Source: an uncultured Pseudomonadota bacterium (GTDB lineage: Bacteria > Pseudomonadota > Gammaproteobacteria > Methylococcales > Methylomonadaceae). Taken from it: a stretch of DNA of 48,001 nucleotides. Shown piece by piece: positions 23,206 through 28,935 of the stretch. Position 1 is the first letter of the stretch, and the number at the start of each line of letters is the position of its first letter. The notes beneath the pieces are model-generated. The model did no database searches, was not told the origin of the DNA, and was given only the letters and a program-made list of their open reading frames with translations. The stretch spans positions 1 to 48,001 of the forward strand of contig CAIOHN010000192.1 in the NCBI GenBank assembly GCA_903858105.1, in the 5' to 3' direction. A program made the translations under genes and the position numbers.

Positions 23206-24477
23206 CTACAGCCTATCCGCCAACAACCTGATCGGATGCACCAACTTACGCGCGGTCTCTGCCCGTTCTGCATTCAAATAAAACGCGCAGCTGAAATTGC
23301 TGCTGACTACCACGTCCGCACCAGAACCTTCGATGGCTTGGCGCTTGGCATGCCGCAGTTGTTGGGCGTTATCGGGATGCGTCAGCATGTAGCTGCCACC
23401 CGCACCGCAACATAACTGATTGTCTGGCAAGGCTTCGATATTCAAACCGGGGATTTTCCGCAGCAAGGCATGCACGGACTGGCCGTTTTTCAAGACGTTA
23501 CGCTGGCTGCATGGCTCGTGAACCGCGACGTTTAAGTTGGATGCCGCCAGTTGCAGGTCATCCGGCCAATGCGCCAATAAAAATTGGTTGATGTCCTGCA
23601 AACTGCGGCCAAACCAACCGGCGGTTTCCGTATCATCGCCTTGATATTCGCTCAACATCGCACCGCAGCCGCTGGCGACGTAAATTATCGCCTCCACTTC
23701 CAGCTCATAAAATGCCGCGATATTTTTGTCTTTTAAGGTTTGCGCGGAACAGCCGTGATGTTGATGAATTGCGCCGCAGCAACCCTGGTTTTCTGGCACC
23801 ACCACTTCGTAGCCTATGGCATTAAGCAGTTTAATCGCCGCGCGCTGGGTGGCGCGATCGAAATGTTCGGCCAGACAGCCGGTGAACAAGGCCACTCGAC
23901 CACGGCGACGCGCGCGTCTACCGACCGGATAAATTCCGGCCAATCCGCCCAAGGCGGGCTCGCTCAGCAGATTTTCGGCGCTGGCCAGTTTTAATTTCTT
24001 GAGTAAGCCACTGGCCCGCAGTGGCTTGCGCAAACCGGAACGCAGATACAAAGATAACAAGGGCAAGAGCAAGCGTCGCCGGCGCTTGTGTTCGATCAAA
24101 AACAGCGCCAACTTTGCCAGCCAGGAACGCGAAACGCTTTGGCTTAATTTTTCCCTGGCCTGATCGAATAGCGTCCCGTAGTTCATCCGGCTGGGACAGG
24201 CTGTTTCACAGGCGCGGCATTGCAGACAGTTATCTAAATGTTCGTGCTCTTCCTCGCTGATCGCTACATCCTCTACCAGCACTTTGCTGATCGTGCGTAT
24301 GCGTTGCCGGGGCGTTTCGGCCTCGGTTTGGAATAAGCGAAACGTCGGGCAACTGCTGACACACATGCCGCAGCGCATACATTCGCCAGCATCCGGGATA
24401 TACGGGCCGCCACCAGTCGGCAGTTCCATGCCGTTATCGCCCGTCATACCCTGGCTAAAATCCATGATGTCGAACAT
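23206..24477 (-). CDS. Fe-S oxidoreductase, GlcF-like (2x 4Fe-4S plus two CCG domains)
   Basis: CMRCGMCVSSCP, CLQCRACETACP, FTGC, GCCGA, HEPC and LCCGAGG motifs. Start ATG 24477 with GGAGG RBS. Confidence 0.85.
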   Translation of the reverse strand: MFDIMDFSQGMTGDNGMELPTGGGPYIPDAGECMRCGMCVSSCPTFRLFQTEAETPRQRIRTISKVLVEDVAISEEEHEHLDNCLQCRACETACPSRMNYGTLFDQAREKLSQSVSRSWLAKLALFLIEHKRRRRLLLPLLSLYLRSGLRKPLRASGLLKKLKLASAENLLSEPALGGLAGIYPVGRRARRRGRVALFTGCLAEHFDRATQRAAIKLLNAIGYEVVVPENQGCCGAIHQHHGCSAQTLKDKNIAAFYELEVEAIIYVASGCGAMLSEYQGDDTETAGWFGRSLQDINQFLLAHWPDDLQLAASNLNVAVHEPCSQRNVLKNGQSVHALLRKIPGLNIEALPDNQLCCGAGGSYMLTHPDNAQQLRHAKRQAIEGSGADVVVSSNFSCAFYLNAERAETARKLVHPIRLLADRL

Positions 24478-24478
24478 G

Positions 24479-24928
24479 TCAGCCTCCCATGAGATGCGTG
24501 TAAGCACGGCGCAGCAATTCCATCTCGGCGGGCGGGCGACCGCGTAGTTCCGGTAGGGTGCGCATTTGGCAATTAAACGTTTGCATCAGCTGATGCGGTG
24601 GATCCAGCATTTTGAAGCGGGCCATATAGACGGTCATAATACCTCTTGGGGTATCGATCAATGCCTGATAACCGGCTTCGGCCTGCAATAAATCACTATC
24701 CAATCGCAATATCCTGTTAAGGCTGGTGACCAGCATTGCCGGATGCAAGCTGACGTTTCCGGGCGCGACAGCATCTTCGTCAAGCGCACTGGATAAGGCC
24801 GGCAGCGCCTGTGGAAAGCAGACGCTGCCGTTGGCTTGTTGGGTAAATAAGGTCAAGGCGCTGATATCGCCTTTGTAAAACAACAGCAGTCTGTGATTTT
24901 CAAATTCTGCCGGAATGCTGGGGTTCAT
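24479..24928 (-). CDS. Hypothetical protein (nif operon accessory)
   Basis: 149 aa ORF tightly packed in the operon; no recognised motif. Confidence 0.7.
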   Translation of the reverse strand: MNPSIPAEFENHRLLLFYKGDISALTLFTQQANGSVCFPQALPALSSALDEDAVAPGNVSLHPAMLVTSLNRILRLDSDLLQAEAGYQALIDTPRGIMTVYMARFKMLDPPHQLMQTFNCQMRTLPELRGRPPAEMELLRRAYTHLMGG

Positions 24929-24931
24929 CGC

Positions 24932-25894
24932 TTAGCCAGGGGCATAATTGTCCCATAAGGATTTAAAGCTGCTATCCAGCCGGGCCAAGCGACTATTGAT
25001 CTGATCCAACAGCGGATAATGCGGAAAGCGCGCCTTGTTACCGTCGCGATACCAATTGTCCATGGCTTCAGTCAATTGCGCTTTCTCGACAAAACAGTCG
25101 GCGATTTGCTGTTTGAGCCAACTGATACTGCGTTGCGGGGCCAAATCAGCCACCCGATAGCGTAATCCGTTATTAAAGATCCGCACCCCGCCACCCTGCG
25201 CAGCAGTGTGATACAAGGCGGTCGGATCGACGATTTCCACGCCGGCCAGATAATCGATACCAAATTCGTGCAACTGCGGCAACCACGGTACGGTCGGGCC
25301 CATCAACACTGTTTTGGCGTGGCTGGCCAGTTCCACCAGGCGTGGAAACGTTTTATTGGGGATGCTGCTGGCGGTCAAAAATACCCAGTCGGCTTGCGGC
25401 AATAAAAACTCGCACGCCGAATCAGGCAAATCCGCAGCCGACGGTTGCCGCTCCAAAATGGTTAAATGCATCTTGTCCTGATAGCGCTCGATACCCGGAT
25501 AGCGACCGATGACCACCACGTTTTTGCCCTGTAACTGCGGCAGGAAATGATCGAACACAGCCAGATTGGCGTGTTCGTCATGGCTATCTAAAACTATCGA
25601 TTCCGGCAGTGGCCGGGCATTGATGCAGCTATTGATTGCTGCCATCGCTACCGTCGATTTGTAGGGTTCCCATTCGGTAATCCAGGCCGCCAGATCGGTA
25701 ACCGGCTTGCCGCCTAAAGTCCCCGACCAGGGTAAGGTGCGAGTGCTTTGCCCCGGACTCATCGCCAAGCCAGCGGTCGCCCGACCCTTGCATTGGCACA
25801 GTGTCCAGACCAGGCCGATCATCAGGTTGTCAACCACCGCGTCGCTGCTGCAATAATCCAGCAATAATTCGTACAGTCGTTTTGGGTTAGCCAT
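24932..25894 (-). CDS. DUF364 / Rossmann-like putative heavy-metal chelation protein
   Basis: IGLVWT, GLAMSP, MAAINS, VVVIGRYP, LTASSIPNKTFPRL and MGPTVP motifs. Confidence 0.75.
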   Translation of the reverse strand: MANPKRLYELLLDYCSSDAVVDNLMIGLVWTLCQCKGRATAGLAMSPGQSTRTLPWSGTLGGKPVTDLAAWITEWEPYKSTVAMAAINSCINARPLPESIVLDSHDEHANLAVFDHFLPQLQGKNVVVIGRYPGIERYQDKMHLTILERQPSAADLPDSACEFLLPQADWVFLTASSIPNKTFPRLVELASHAKTVLMGPTVPWLPQLHEFGIDYLAGVEIVDPTALYHTAAQGGGVRIFNNGLRYRVADLAPQRSISWLKQQIADCFVEKAQLTEAMDNWYRDGNKARFPHYPLLDQINSRLARLDSSFKSLWDNYAPG

Positions 25895-25903
25895 TGCCCC
25901 TCC

Positions 25904-26284
25904 TCATTCTGGGATGTCCAGCAATTTTGCTTCGGTTTTAATGTTGTCCTGCTGCCCCCAGGCGTTGATCGCTTCAACAAACCAGCGCTTTTTAGTTGGG
26001 TGTGGCTGCACGACGTCGTATTCGGCATAAAAACTGCCGTCACCATGAAATTTAATCTGCCCGACCCGTTGTTGACTGGCGCTATACCAATAGCCAACCA
26101 AGTCCTGACTTTGGGTAAACGGATCGATGACTACGCTAAATTGGGCGTTATCGAAATCCGGCAGACTTAACTTGGTTTGCACCGGAAATCCCAATTTAAC
26201 GATGTTCTCGGTCATCCTTTGACAAACCGCTTTGCCAAAGCTGCGCTTGGCTGCGACTTGTTCAGTAAGCTCGTCGGTAGTCAT
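25904..26284 (-). CDS. Hypothetical protein (nif operon accessory)
   Basis: 126 aa with DPF and DGSFYAEYDVVQPHP..WFVEA..AWG. ATGA overlap with the upstream gene. Confidence 0.75.
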   Translation of the reverse strand: MTTDELTEQVAAKRSFGKAVCQRMTENIVKLGFPVQTKLSLPDFDNAQFSVVIDPFTQSQDLVGYWYSASQQRVGQIKFHGDGSFYAEYDVVQPHPTKKRWFVEAINAWGQQDNIKTEAKLLDIPE

Positions 26285-26787
26285 GCTGCGTCCTCCTGCA
26301 AGGCGTCCGCCAGATCCATAATCACCGAGGCACCGGAACGATCTTGCGGATCCAGGGTACGCATAATCCCCAAAATCAACTGGGCTTCGGCATCCAAATG
26401 CCGGCGCAGTTTGATAAACGCCAGCGCTTTCAAGCTATACAAATAAAACAGGCTAATCTCGCTGACATACATATCCCAGCTAACAAACTCGCGGCCCAAG
26501 CGGCGATAATCGGCAGGAAACCCACCCTGCCGGGCGGCTTCTTCCAAGGCAGCCATGACTTCGCGCTCCGCCTCCAGCAGACGGCCTTGGTAAAAATAAA
26601 ACTTGTACAAGGCAAAATAGGTTTGCAGACAACTGCCATCCAATTGTTGCGCCTGTTTGAAATATTTTTCCGCCAGCGGTTTATCGGCATGACTGGCTGC
26701 CACCGCCATTTGCAAGAGTTTATTCACCTCTTCCGGCAGGTTGGGGCTGAACAATACCCGCTCTTCAAAAACGGAAACCTGGCTCAT
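26281..26787 (-). CDS. Hypothetical helical (TPR-like) protein (nif operon accessory)
   Basis: 168 aa with YFALYKFYFY, FYLYSLKALAFIKLR and LDPQDRSGASV. Confidence 0.75.
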   Translation of the reverse strand: MSQVSVFEERVLFSPNLPEEVNKLLQMAVAASHADKPLAEKYFKQAQQLDGSCLQTYFALYKFYFYQGRLLEAEREVMAALEEAARQGGFPADYRRLGREFVSWDMYVSEISLFYLYSLKALAFIKLRRHLDAEAQLILGIMRTLDPQDRSGASVIMDLADALQEDAA

Positions 26788-26790
26788 GAC

Positions 26791-27114
26791 TTACCAAACC
26801 TCCGCTGGCGCTTTCAAAGCTTCTACCGGCGTGCCGCCCAGCAAATGCTGTTCGATAATGGTTTTCACATCGTCTTTACTGACCTTGCCGTACATAATCC
26901 CTTCCGGGTAAACCAATACGCTGGGCCCCAACATGCATGGCCCCATGCAACCGGTGTTGGTCAGGCCGATACGTTCAAACAAATTACGAGCCTGAATTTC
27001 GGCCATAAATTCGTTCATGACCTCGGCACAACCGCTGGCAGCGCAAGAGCCGCGAGGGTGGCCTTGAGGGCGGGCTTGAGTACAGACGAAGACGTGTTTT
27101 TCGGGACGTGGCAT
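26791..27114 (-). CDS. Thioredoxin-like [2Fe-2S] ferredoxin (Shethna/FeSI type)
   Basis: HVFVC...RGSC, GCMGPC, GPSVLVYPEG and IIEQHL motifs. AGGA RBS before the start. Confidence 0.88.
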   Translation of the reverse strand: MPRPEKHVFVCTQARPQGHPRGSCAASGCAEVMNEFMAEIQARNLFERIGLTNTGCMGPCMLGPSVLVYPEGIMYGKVSKDDVKTIIEQHLLGGTPVEALKAPAEVW

Positions 27115-27193
27115 GATGGCTTCCTTTGTTAGTTGATCTGACAAGTTGTGTCGCGATAGCGACACCTTAATTCATCCAATCGCATTAAATTCT

Positions 27194-27531
27194 GCGACGG
27201 GTTTTACCCCCTATGCCGCGCCGAGCACCGCAGCTTTTGCTGAGAACAGCCCGCCAGGGGCGTCGCATGGATGCGGCGCGTTGATGAAGGGCCAGGGATG
27301 GCCCTTTCGGCAACCCTCGGCAAAAGCTGCGGAGCGCAGGATCAAAGCGGCATCGGGGTGTCTTTTCTTTTGGATACTTTTCTTTGGCGGAGCACAAATT
27401 CGCCTGGAGCGAATTTGAACAGCCGACAGGCTGGCCCGAAGGGTGAAAACCACGGATGGTTTTCATAGCGAAAGTATCTCGGCTGTCGGTCCGAAAACCG
27501 ACTTCAAAAAAAACCGTCGCCATAGCGACAC
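27194..27531 (+). repeat. Structured dispersed repeat, copy 1 (MITE-like or ncRNA-like), with a ~75 nt nested insertion
   Basis: Homologous to 28672-28935. Multiple hairpins show compensatory changes between the copies. Confidence 0.8.
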
Positions 27532-27571
27532 CCCAAAACCATCACCGAGTACGCACAAAAACTAAAGCAGC

Positions 27572-27886
27572 TTACGCCGCCGCCTTATGCTCATGCGTAA
27601 AACAATCCTTAGGACAAACCTTAGAACACGCCTCACAGCCAATACAATCAGCCGCATTCTTCAAACTCATCACCATGCTGTTGTCATCGTCCTCAAAGTC
27701 GCCGTAGTCGTCGCCAAAATCCTCAGCTTCCAATACATCGTCTTTTTCGACCAAATCAAACACATCGCGCGGACAAACCTTGAAGCAACGCCCGCAACCA
27801 ATACAGGTGCGTTGGTTGATATCGGTCACATACGAGGGTGTCCAGACTGTGCCGCCATAGGTAACGCCGGTTACAAAATCACTCAT
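27572..27886 (-). CDS. fdxB: Ferredoxin III, nif-specific (2x 4Fe-4S)
   Basis: WTPSYV, CIGCGRCFKVCP, an acidic linker and CIGCEACSKVCP, downstream of nifX. Confidence 0.88.
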   Translation of the reverse strand: MSDFVTGVTYGGTVWTPSYVTDINQRTCIGCGRCFKVCPRDVFDLVEKDDVLEAEDFGDDYGDFEDDDNSMVMSLKNAADCIGCEACSKVCPKDCFTHEHKAAA

Positions 27887-27895
27887 CATTCCCCC

Positions 27896-28111
27896 TTACG
27901 CAGCTTCGCTGCTGGCAGCCAAGAATTTTTTGTTTGCTTCATCCCAGGCTTTGCAGGCATCGTAAGCAGTTTGCGCGATACCCATCAGTTCGCCGTAGGC
28001 ATCCGGCAATCTATCTTCGATCAAATCGTGCAATTCCATCGCCGCCTCGCTGGCCAGGCGCTTGGTTTTTTTAACGTCTTTTTCCAGTTTTTTAAGTTCT
28101 TCGTCGCTCAT
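27896..28111 (-). CDS. CCE_0567-family (Rop-like) nif-associated small protein
   Basis: AMELHDLIEDRLP...AQTAYDAC motif in its typical position between DUF269 and fdxB. Confidence 0.8.
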   Translation of the reverse strand: MSDEELKKLEKDVKKTKRLASEAAMELHDLIEDRLPDAYGELMGIAQTAYDACKAWDEANKKFLAASSEAA

Positions 28112-28119
28112 AACTCACC

Positions 28120-28593
28120 TCAAGCTTCGGCTACTTCTCTGTATTGCGTGATCAAGCCCAAGGCTTTTTCCAGGGCTACGTCGGTTTTTTCGTTCAGATC
28201 AGCCAGGCTTGGAAAGCCAAAGCGATGTACATCGCGCAAGACTTTATCCACCACAATCAACTTGCCGACCAACACCAAAGCCCGGCCAAAACCTTCGTGG
28301 GTAATATTGATAACCGGCACCGCCATCAGTCCGGATTTTTTCTCGATCAAGGATGCGATGCTGTTGTAATAGGCTTTAACCCGCGCCAAGGTAATTTCGT
28401 CAGGATCGCCGACGATAGGGATTTCGCGTTTGCGTTCTTTGGTCAACACCAATGGGTCGATAACTTTCTCATCCGACCAGCCATCGTAGGTGTCGTAAGT
28501 ATCCAGGGCGCGAAGTTGTTTCAGCATTTCGGTAACGATATCTGAAGTCATAAACGGGTCGCCGGCTTCGACGACTAATGCTGCTTGGGACAT
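28120..28593 (-). CDS. NifX-associated nitrogen fixation protein (DUF269)
   Basis: QLRALDTY, IPIVGDPD, HEGFGR and LRDVHRFGF motifs. Confidence 0.88.
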   Translation of the reverse strand: MSQAALVVEAGDPFMTSDIVTEMLKQLRALDTYDTYDGWSDEKVIDPLVLTKERKREIPIVGDPDEITLARVKAYYNSIASLIEKKSGLMAVPVINITHEGFGRALVLVGKLIVVDKVLRDVHRFGFPSLADLNEKTDVALEKALGLITQYREVAEA

Positions 28594-28671
28594 GGTGGTT
28601 CTCCTATGGGTTTTTGTTTAAGCGGTCTTCGGTTCTTGGCCGCTGCAAAGTATTTGTGTTGTGTCGCAACC

Positions 28672-28935
28672 GCGACGGTTTTCCCCCGTATGCCGCGCCG
28701 AGCACCGCAGTGTTTGGCGAGATTTGCCCGCTAGGGGTGCGGCATGGATGCCGCACGTCTGCAGAGGGGCAGGAAGCCCCTTCTGCAGACCCTTGCCAAA
28801 CGCTGTGGAGCGCAGGATATCAGCGGCATCCGGGTCGCCTTTTCTTTGGTTACTTTCTTTTGGCGAAGCAAAAGAAAGTAACTCGCCGGCCGGTGCGAGA
28901 ACCGGCTTTAAATTAAGCTTCGCGATAGCGAAACC
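28672..28935 (+). repeat. Structured dispersed repeat, copy 2
   Basis: Shares TATGCCGCGCCGAGCACCGCAG, GGAGCGCAGGAT, GCGGCATC and the CTTTTCTTT...TACTTT...GAAAGTA block with copy 1. Confidence 0.8.

What the first reader, a model, noticed from the sequence alone, without database searches (positions are those of the whole stretch)
27259..28790. Hairpin loops of the repeats carry CsrA/RsmA-type A(N)GGA motifs
On the + strand, copy 1 hairpins are capped by CATGGATG, CAGGGATG, CACGGATG and CTGGA. Copy 2 hairpins are capped by CATGGATG and CAGGAAG. The loops are conserved while the stems change. GGA exposed in a short hairpin loop (CA-NGGA-UG) is the established CsrA/RsmA recognition site used by CsrB/RsmZ sRNAs. 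Inference: the elements could be dispersed CsrA sponges or portable CsrA-binding modules, or the loops could be recognised by the protein that mobilises them.
Basis: partly seen in the sequence, partly recalled or inferred. Interest (0 to 1): 0.7.

Follow-up and report, generated by a model that had tools for sequence, protein, structure and literature searches.

The report
GGA-capped repeats bracketing gene-swap slots
The two hairpin-rich repeats in this nitrogen-fixation operon are copies of a dispersed, TwoAYGGAY-like structured element that in relatives stands in back-to-back pairs around exchanged foreign genes, and its GGA loops are likely docking sites for the regulator CsrA, because related elements in the CsrA-less bacteria sampled keep the same frame but lack the paired loops.

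Summary
In detail: all six GGA loops are present and cap real hairpins. They belong to a ~265-bp dispersed element with at least 12 near-full copies here and 40-50 in complete relatives. It is a diverged, extended TwoAYGGAY RNA (RF01731 at 29.6 bits, below the 43-bit cut-off). CsrA binding, sponge function, mobility and divergent doublets were already proposed in print. Two things were not in the papers I read. (1) The same frame (basal stem, U-rich hairpin, 3' pseudoknot) spreads in csrA-less Burkholderiales with a different, GGA-free head: two or more GGA loops in 12 of 18 csrA-positive versus 0 of 16 csrA-negative genomes, all negatives from one order. So the loops track CsrA and are not needed for spread. 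(2) In relatives, back-to-back pairs bracket low-GC, partly anti-phage cargo that differs between genomes at the same site; one cassette sits at two sites with junctions inside the repeats. Here both copies are antisense to the nif mRNA, so that mRNA would not display GGA. No transcript, binding data or mobilising enzyme was found. Verdict: new variant of a known kind.

The parts
27197..27531 (+). Copy 1 of the extended TwoAYGGAY-type element, with a ~72-bp insert; antisense to the nif operon, its 3' end 40 bp from the stop codon of the nif ferredoxin III gene
   Evidence: nhmmer 27197-27398 and 27470-27531; RF01731 27211-27350, 29.6 bits, E 0.046
27260..27279 (+). Copy 1 hairpin H1, loop CA-T-GGA-TG
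   Evidence: covarying stem (helix 7)
27280..27314 (+). Copy 1 hairpin H2, loop CA-G-GGA-TG
   Evidence: helix 8
27398..27469 (+). Optional ~72-bp insert in the tip of the U-rich hairpin, adding two GGA hairpins (CCTGGAG, CACGGATG)
   Evidence: gap in copy 2; in 19 of 187 copies, always on the GGA strand
27478..27502 (+). Copy 1 3' H-type pseudoknot (predicted)
   Evidence: columns 219-222 pair with 231-234 in 99% of cells, with two-sided changes in 13 and 5 of 50 copies; place
27516..27531 (+). Copy 1 terminal hairpin, the sharp 3' end of the element (GCGACAC)
   Evidence: conservation ends after this motif in 172 copies
27148..27165 (.). Terminal-hairpin copy, likely the remnant of a lost minus-strand partner of copy 1
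   Evidence: many relatives carry a full minus-strand partner whose 3' end lies at this place
28677..28934 (+). Copy 2 of the element, no insert; antisense to the nif operon, its 3' end 28 bp from the nifX stop codon
   Evidence: first row of alignment A4
28737..28756 (+). Copy 2 hairpin H1, loop CA-T-GGA-TG
28757..28790 (+). Copy 2 hairpin H2, loop CA-GGA-AG
28849..28882 (+). Copy 2 long U/A-rich hairpin; this part is shared with GGA-free relatives
   Evidence: (I13), helix 9; pattern hits
28882..28906 (+). Copy 2 3' pseudoknot (predicted)
28919..28934 (+). Copy 2 terminal hairpin
28660..28678 (-). 3' end of a likely deleted minus-strand partner abutting copy 2
   Evidence: inverted repeat I1; full minus-strand copies at this site in L014, L015, L018, L020
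28963..29448 (-). nifX (host operon, upstream of copy 2 in the mRNA)
   Evidence: TIGR02663 above cut-off
28120..28593 (-). NifX-associated protein
   Evidence: TIGR02935 above cut-off
27572..27889 (-). nif-specific ferredoxin III
   Evidence: TIGR02936 above cut-off
26791..27114 (-). 2Fe-2S ferredoxin
   Evidence: NF041613, below its cut-off

Best explanation
The two repeats are copies of a ~265-bp dispersed, TwoAYGGAY-like structured element whose twin GGA hairpins likely bind a CsrA dimer when the element is transcribed as part of a neighbouring mRNA, and whose back-to-back pairs likely serve as recombination handles that let foreign gene cassettes be swapped at fixed sites in operons. Shown: a conserved frame (basal stem, U-rich hairpin, 3' pseudoknot, terminal hairpin) carries an exchangeable head. 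The GGA head is seen only in csrA-bearing genomes, while most csrA-less relatives carry a UGUYYGAG...CGAGUU head. Pairs are divergent and enclose low-GC genes that differ between genomes. Inferred: CsrA acts in cis on the read-through RNA (stability or translation of the cargo or next gene) rather than being soaked up; spread does not need the loops; cassettes move by homology-driven recombination between ~80%-identical copies. Also inferred: the two copies in this window are the surviving halves of former pairs, lie antisense to the nif mRNA, and are probably silent as CsrA sites unless antisense RNA is made.
For: Loops fit C-A-N-GGA-N-G with a free N. G-U exceeds A-C on the GGA strand, 67 against 14 cells and 30 against 14 columns, p 0.02. 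All 28 optional GGA inserts among 187 copies lie on the GGA strand. At least two GGA hairpin loops occur in 12 of 18 csrA-positive and 0 of 16 csrA-negative genomes carrying the frame (p 4e-5). The family of G061 (named Methylophilaceae) has csrA in 2 of 121 genomes, yet carries GGA-free divergent pairs. Neighbouring copies under 4 kb apart: 13 divergent, 2 tandem, 0 convergent in G051; 13, 1 and 0 in G016. Median GC is 42% for cargo and 55% for flanking genes. Cargo includes retron II-A twice, RexAB, PDC-S31, PDC-S59, a PARIS-like ATPase, EcoRV, GmrSD/HNH and Schlafen. Near-full-length PADLOC hits: 9 of 70 cargo against 1 of 90 flanking proteins. One cassette is 98% identical at two sites of G023; identity switches inside the flanking elements (0.74 to 0.97 on the left, 0.98 to 0.89 on the right). 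Same site with a different 5' flank: 68 cross-genome pairs, against 27 with the same flank.
Against: No transcript or binding evidence was obtained. All csrA-negative genomes come from one order, so the contrast may be a single evolutionary event. Their completeness is not given, and 6 of 18 csrA-positive genomes lack two GGA loops in the copies seen. G-T wobble is tolerated in single-stranded DNA too, so the strand bias does not prove RNA. There is no bias towards being read in the GGA sense: the 3' neighbour ends at the element in 101 cases and starts there in 65, and the 5' side is 67:67. Elements at one site are alike along their whole length (0.85-0.92 against 0.74-0.83 for unrelated copies, with no gradient), which frequent crossing-over inside them would erode; only one intra-element junction pair was seen. 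With any PADLOC hit at E 1e-10 the enrichment is weak (11 of 70 against 5 of 90, p 0.06). Most cargo has no family, and IS elements also collect there, as at any neutral landing site. Hairpin 2 reads TGGGAAG in 34 of 111 copies, lacking the A of ANGGA.
Confidence: 0.5

Rival explanations
1. Dispersed sponge: each copy is transcribed on its own and the 40-50 copies together titrate CsrA in trans, like CsrB/RsmZ.
For: Two to four GGA hairpins per copy, and inserts add more. The GGA head tracks csrA. Proposed in PMC4333381 and bioRxiv 10.64898/2026.09.22.753630.
Against: No conserved promoter-like sequence upstream: composition fades within about 40 bp of the conserved core, and there are 0 sigma-70 sites here. 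A near-complete csrA-bearing relative has almost no pattern hits (G054: 2, control 1). Copies sit wedged within operons.
Confidence: 0.15
2. The element works as folded single-stranded DNA, an attC-like site for an unidentified recombinase or HUH enzyme, and GGA is kept for DNA hairpin stability or protein recognition, not for CsrA.
For: Other loops are G-N-A or G-N-Y-A closed by C-G, the stable DNA mini-hairpin type (recalled). The 3' end is sharp. RAYT genes have an element within 1.5 kb at 9 of 28 distinct places (10 of 33 loci). REP-like CTAC motifs lie within 120 bp of the 5' end in 67 of 170 copies, against 9% in random genome windows.
Against: The head is swapped for a GGA-free one where csrA is missing. 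RAYTs are diverse (49-54% identity), many lie beside their own GTAG motifs, and they occur in 42 of 45 genus genomes whatever the element load. No transposase or recombinase family among 69 proteins on the 5' side of distant copies.
Confidence: 0.17
3. A selfish MITE-like repeat with no host role: the GGA loops were inherited from a CsrA-binding ancestor, and cargo simply piles up at neutral sites the repeats opened.
For: Copy number varies widely, and distant relatives have short empty sites of 28-134 bp. IS256, IS110, IS4 and RAYT genes are common in the spacers. The defence enrichment is modest.
Against: No terminal inverted repeat and no target-site duplication (longest outer direct repeat 3.8 against 3.7 in the null, 46 pairs). 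Compensatory change persists across 50 copies, and copies stay at their site about as long as the host genes do.
Confidence: 0.13
4. The GGA loops are what the mobilising protein recognises.
For: The loops are among the most conserved positions.
Against: Same-frame elements without paired GGA loops are multi-copy and in part paired in 16 csrA-less genomes.
Confidence: 0.05

Closest known systems
TwoAYGGAY RNA motif, Rfam RF01731, clan CL00106 (Weinberg et al. 2010, PMC2864571: table row and supplement passages seen)
   Same: Two adjacent hairpins with CA-N-GGA-UG loops on a long basal stem; copy 1 aligns over the full model, positions 1-168. Four copies of this family in relatives are RF01731 hits at 36.6-37.4 bits.
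   Different: Below the 43-bit cut-off. N is mostly G, T or A rather than Y, and hairpin 2 is often AGGAA or TGGGA. Over-threshold genus hits are a shorter subfamily that my profile does not match.
Extended TwoAYGGAY RNAs of Pseudomonadota (bioRxiv 10.64898/2026.09.22.753630: abstract, results section 8 and keyword passages read; supplements closed)
   Same: Extra hairpins, elongated basal stem, 3' pseudoknot, divergent doublets, variable copy number, extra GGA-hairpin variants, nearby REPs; sponge and mobility both proposed.
   Different: Its main text has no occurrence of 'cargo', 'Burkholderiales' or 'Betaproteobacteria'. Its doublets are a median 249 bp apart, while these are mostly 0.5-5 kb apart with genes between. 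It reports no GGA-free head. I did not test for its 5' 5-mer arrays, and its covariance model was not available.
YPAL/RU-2 repeats of Yersinia (PMC2759123: passages with the printed sequence; PMC2229807: parts 1-2 of 3 read; the primary paper PMC1636318 was not held)
   Same: By eye, the printed 168-nt unit also has two CA-N-GGA-TG-capped hairpins in a long stem and resembles the short over-threshold RF01731 hits. It is intergenic and mobile, with no known enzyme.
   Different: YPAL is reported to make 3-26-bp target duplications; none was found here. No U-rich hairpin or pseudoknot is visible in the printed unit. Not aligned by tool.
CsrB/CsrC/RsmY/RsmZ sponge sRNAs (as described in PMC4333381 passages; the rest recalled)
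   Same: GGA exposed in short hairpin loops, in pairs suited to a CsrA dimer.
   Different: Those are one to a few loci with their own regulated promoter and terminator. This element is dispersed, paired, embedded in operons, and has no promoter found.
Integron cassette arrays with attC sites (recalled)
   Same: Structured repeats bounding small, low-GC, often uncharacterised or anti-phage genes; occasional tandem arrays (L058 and L069).
   Different: Dozens of scattered slots with inverted pairs, ~265-bp multi-branch repeats, and no integrase seen beside them.

Membership tests
TwoAYGGAY (RF01731) | Score at or above the Rfam gathering threshold (43 bits) | tested here: not met
   29.6 bits for copy 1, no listed hit for copy 2; family copies in relatives reach 36.6-37.4
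TwoAYGGAY (RF01731) | Two sequential hairpins on a common basal stem | tested here: met
   (helices 5, 7, 8)
TwoAYGGAY (RF01731) | AYGGAY in both terminal loops | tested here: inconclusive
   H1 is A-N-GGA-Y in most copies, with N = T 48, G 40, A 16 of 111; H2 is mostly CAGGAAG or TGGGAAG. GGA is kept, the strict AYGGAY often is not.
Extended Pseudomonadota TwoAYGGAY (Li et al. 2026) | Extra hairpins, elongated basal stem and 3' pseudoknot | tested here: met
   12 helices including a covarying pseudoknot
Extended Pseudomonadota TwoAYGGAY (Li et al. 2026) | Divergent doublets and variable copy number | tested here: met
   26 divergent, 3 tandem, 0 convergent in two complete genomes; pattern counts from near background to about 55
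Extended Pseudomonadota TwoAYGGAY (Li et al. 2026) | Match to their extended covariance model | not testable with these tools
   model and supplements not available
Csr/Rsm sponge sRNA | Several GGA motifs in hairpin loops | tested here: met
   2-4 per copy
Csr/Rsm sponge sRNA | Stand-alone transcript from its own promoter | tested here: inconclusive
   no sigma-70 consensus site found; expression not measured
Csr/Rsm sponge sRNA | Binds and titrates CsrA | not testable with these tools
   needs EMSA, CLIP or a reporter
Classical MITE | Terminal inverted repeats on each copy | tested here: not met
   longest match between the ends is 3-5 nt in 163 of 187 copies
Classical MITE / composite transposon | Target-site duplication | tested here: not met
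   46 pairs, mean 3.8 nt against 3.7 nt in the null
Integron | Integrase gene next to the array | tested here: not met
   none among 104, 70 and 69 neighbouring proteins; a genome-wide integrase search was not run

The most novel reading that the evidence does not exclude
TwoAYGGAY is only the CsrA-adapted head of a much wider family of structured elements across Gamma- and Betaproteobacteria. Their inverted pairs form a dispersed, integrase-free cassette-exchange system that installs anti-phage and other foreign genes inside housekeeping operons, and the head is swapped to match the RNA-binding regulator of the host.
Probability: 0.3. Interest if true: 0.8.

Novelty: new variant of a known kind. 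Interest (0 to 1): 0.5.

Why it matters
TwoAYGGAY has stood since 2010 as an RNA of unknown function, with a CsrA guess untested in the papers I read. The csrA-negative relatives give a natural control that favours the guess and separates the loops from the ability to spread. The paired copies mark reusable slots whose cargo is mostly uncharacterised, so they are a direct route to candidate defence genes. They also make the mobility question testable with a marked cassette in a laboratory methanotroph.

Tried and rejected
Rfam at the gathering threshold over the window: 0 hits. Sequencing runs: no RNA holder was listed, which says nothing either way, and no reads were laid. csrA absence in G000, G004, G005 and G015 as a test of loop function: rejected, because the csrA-tRNA cluster is unassembled or partial there, while all 15 genus genomes with 5 contigs or fewer have csrA. 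lysC and gshA as synteny anchors for csrA: not conserved in this genus. RAYT as mobiliser: enriched nearby but neither specific nor predictive. Predicted identity gradient along elements from repeated crossing-over: not seen. Target duplication and terminal repeats: not found. One search was uninformative because partner elements were not masked; it was redone. One search counted both strands of the palindromic hairpin and gave 12 of 18 against 3 of 15 genomes; it was corrected, where a few wrong-strand rows may remain, so I count by genome. G639 was dropped there as a near-duplicate of G689; it has no GGA loop by eye and was added back. The GGA-free head has no Rfam match at E 0.5 in 12 loci, and a literal motif search of papers gave only unrelated eukaryotic papers in the listing. 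Paper searches for MITE plus defence hotspot, CsrA plus intergenic repeat and Methylomonas plus CsrA gave nothing on this element (listings only). QMITE1 papers were seen as a listing only. Passages of 10.64898/2026.05.24.727482 were irrelevant.

Full report
Observation. Both copies fold far better than shuffles (z -6.8 and -10.5). In the whole assembly, CA-N-GGATG loops are the commonest perfect-stem loops after one AT-rich motif: 30 of 381 occurrences close a stem of 6 bp or more, against 0 of 95 and 0 of 261 for permuted motifs.

Setting. The copies lie in two intergenic gaps of a minus-strand nif operon: nifE, nifN, nifX, NifX-associated protein, a 71-residue ORF, ferredoxin III and a 2Fe-2S ferredoxin. 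Both are antisense to the operon, so the nif mRNA would carry UCC loops, not GGA. Named records with close copies are Methylomonas, Methylobacter, Methylovulum, Methylocucumis, Methyloglobulus and Crenothrix, so I infer a Methylococcales methanotroph.

The element. It is about 265 bp long, with at least 12 near-full copies and many fragments in this 78%-complete assembly. Two complete relatives gave 45 and 51 BLAST pieces, with only 40 of 69 and 40 of 54 candidates scored. An alignment of the window's copy 2 and 49 of 122 insert-free copies gives 12 helices: a long basal stem, a small G-N-A hairpin, the two GGA hairpins, a U/A-rich hairpin, an H-type pseudoknot and a terminal hairpin. 98.7% of cells pair, and 37 of 82 pairs show two-sided change. 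Hairpin 1 keeps GGA in 111 of 111 parsed copies (10 of 121 not parsed, and a few nif-site rows repeat copies from G051 or G023), with a free base before it; hairpin 2 keeps it in 108 of 111. G-U outnumbers A-C 67 to 14 on the GGA strand. Three kinds of optional insert add further GGA hairpins; all 28 found among 187 copies are on the GGA strand, although one opposite-strand insert is visible in a Methyloglobulus copy (L366). The 3' end is sharp and the 5' end fades. There are no terminal inverted repeats and no target duplication.

What is known. Rfam RF01731 (TwoAYGGAY, clan CL00106) aligns over copy 1 at 29.6 bits, under its 43-bit threshold, and four family copies in relatives score 36.6-37.4. 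PMC4333381 (passages read) already proposes CsrA binding for TwoAYGGAY. bioRxiv 10.64898/2026.09.22.753630 (abstract, section 8 and keyword passages read) describes the extended structure, the pseudoknot, divergent doublets and copy-number variation, names both the sponge and mobile-element ideas, and leaves them unresolved. A full-text search for the name found 13 papers, of which 8 were listed.

Is CsrA present? Not in this assembly. csrA precedes tRNA-Ser(GCT) in all 6 loci checked, and that tRNA is missing here along with Arg(ACG) and Asn. 34 of 44 genus relatives have csrA, including all 15 with 5 contigs or fewer. The gap is most likely an assembly artefact.

A natural control. A Methylophilaceae record (L342, genome G061) carries the same frame with GGA-free tips, and its family has csrA in 2 of 121 genomes. 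A pattern for the U-rich hairpin hit 18 of 400 other genomes of the class, all 18 csrA-positive (csrA in 355 of 400 scored, a tally that includes G222, flagged unpublished, and omits G401). The same pattern, loosened by one letter, hit 13 of 331 genomes of the order of G061 (Burkholderiales in GTDB, recalled). Those 13, plus three more, are all csrA-negative (0 of 16). Folding the upstream body gave two or more GGA hairpin loops in at least one copy in 12 of 18 csrA-positive and 0 of 16 csrA-negative genomes; single GGA loops occurred in 14 of 18 and 2 of 15. Most negatives, and several positives, carry a different head with a UGUYYGAG...CGAGUU motif that has no Rfam match. Only one to five copies per genome were seen, and the negatives are one clade, so this is supportive, not decisive. 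It does show that paired GGA loops are not required for the element to be multi-copy, which argues against recognition of the loops by a mobiliser.

Pairs and cargo. In two complete relatives, neighbouring copies under 4 kb apart are divergent 26 times, tandem 3 times and never convergent (positions picked by hand). Their 3' ends abut host genes, often within 100 bp, and the space between holds genes of median 42% GC against 55% outside; 26 of 34 cargo ORFs run with the host operon (46 pairs). Cargo includes retron II-A at different sites in two genomes, RexAB, PDC-S31, PDC-S59, a PARIS-like ATPase, EcoRV, GmrSD/HNH, Schlafen, SIR2 and ParE, plus IS and RAYT genes, but most proteins have no family (70 of 74 cargo ORFs scanned, and one 'pair', L213, wrongly spans host urease genes). 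Near-full-length PADLOC hits are 9 of 70 against 1 of 90 flanking proteins, but any-hit counts are 11 of 70 against 5 of 90 (p 0.06). The same site carries different 5' DNA in 68 cross-genome comparisons and the same DNA in 27 (pairwise, not independent). At the two nif sites, relatives show pairs, single copies of either strand, collapsed remnants or short empty gaps, and both window copies have a partner-like remnant beside them. In G023 one cassette of about 0.8 kb occurs at two sites 2.3 Mb apart at 98% identity, with identity switching inside both flanking elements. That is the one direct sign of recombination within the repeats. Against it as a frequent event, elements at one site resemble each other along their whole length.

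Mobiliser. None was identified. RAYT genes have an element nearby at 9 of 28 distinct places, and REP-like motifs are enriched at the 5' side. But the RAYTs are diverse, many have their own GTAG motifs, and they are near-universal in the genus. No transposase or recombinase family appears among 69 proteins beside distant copies, although defence-type genes (DpnII, AbiV, HipA, ParE) do.

Reading. Shown: structure, conservation, dispersion, paired layout, cargo turnover, and the association of head type with csrA. Inferred: CsrA binds the twin loops in cis on read-through RNA; cassettes move by homology between copies; the two window copies are leftover halves and probably silent as CsrA sites. 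An earlier finding of this scan (e1-6996035) reported pairs bracketing anti-phage genes in another lineage. I reached that from my own calls before seeing it, and it is not independent support. Verdict: a new variant of a known kind, interest 0.5.

Noticed in passing
window 27530-27515 and 28906-28885 (minus strand): Read on the nif mRNA strand, the 3' hairpins of both copies score as intrinsic-terminator-like sites just after the ferredoxin III and nifX stop codons. They could attenuate or stabilise segments of the nif transcript.
   Followed up: no
L416, L424, L426, L432 (csrA-negative); L385, L390, L401 (csrA-positive): A second head type, UGUYYGAG-hairpin-CGAGUU, sits on the same frame in many Gamma- and Betaproteobacteria and has no Rfam match. 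It looks like an uncatalogued structured motif family.
   Followed up: partly
L418, L419, L417 (G615, G759, G841): A third head type (CCCTCTTTTGAGCGCAGCG core) on the same U-rich hairpin frame, multi-copy in csrA-negative genomes.
   Followed up: no
L440-L445: The over-threshold RF01731 hits in the genus are a short subfamily that by eye resembles the printed Yersinia YPAL/RU-2 unit; YPAL may be a TwoAYGGAY element.
   Followed up: partly
G000 C26, C260, C295, C347, C359, C231, C235: Small GGA-hairpin inserts of about 48-75 bp enter the element at several different positions, most beginning after a G-A-C. They behave like second-level mobile modules.
   Followed up: partly
L159:2984-6310 and L199:3879-5719: Related retron II-A systems (NDT effector plus RT, 73-78% DNA identity) sit between element pairs at unrelated host sites in G023 and G016.
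   Followed up: partly
L151 (G021), nif site 1: An 841-bp low-GC insert holding one ORF occupies the slot with only traces of the elements; the ORF was not annotated.
   Followed up: no
L371:1500-1660 (G061): The spacer of the GGA-free divergent pair holds CGTC-type REP-like palindromes, paralleling the GTAG-type REPs beside the methanotroph copies.
   Followed up: no
window 23206-26787 (minus strand): Several genes downstream of the nif ferredoxins (168, 126, 320 and 149 residues) have no NCBIfam family.
   Followed up: no
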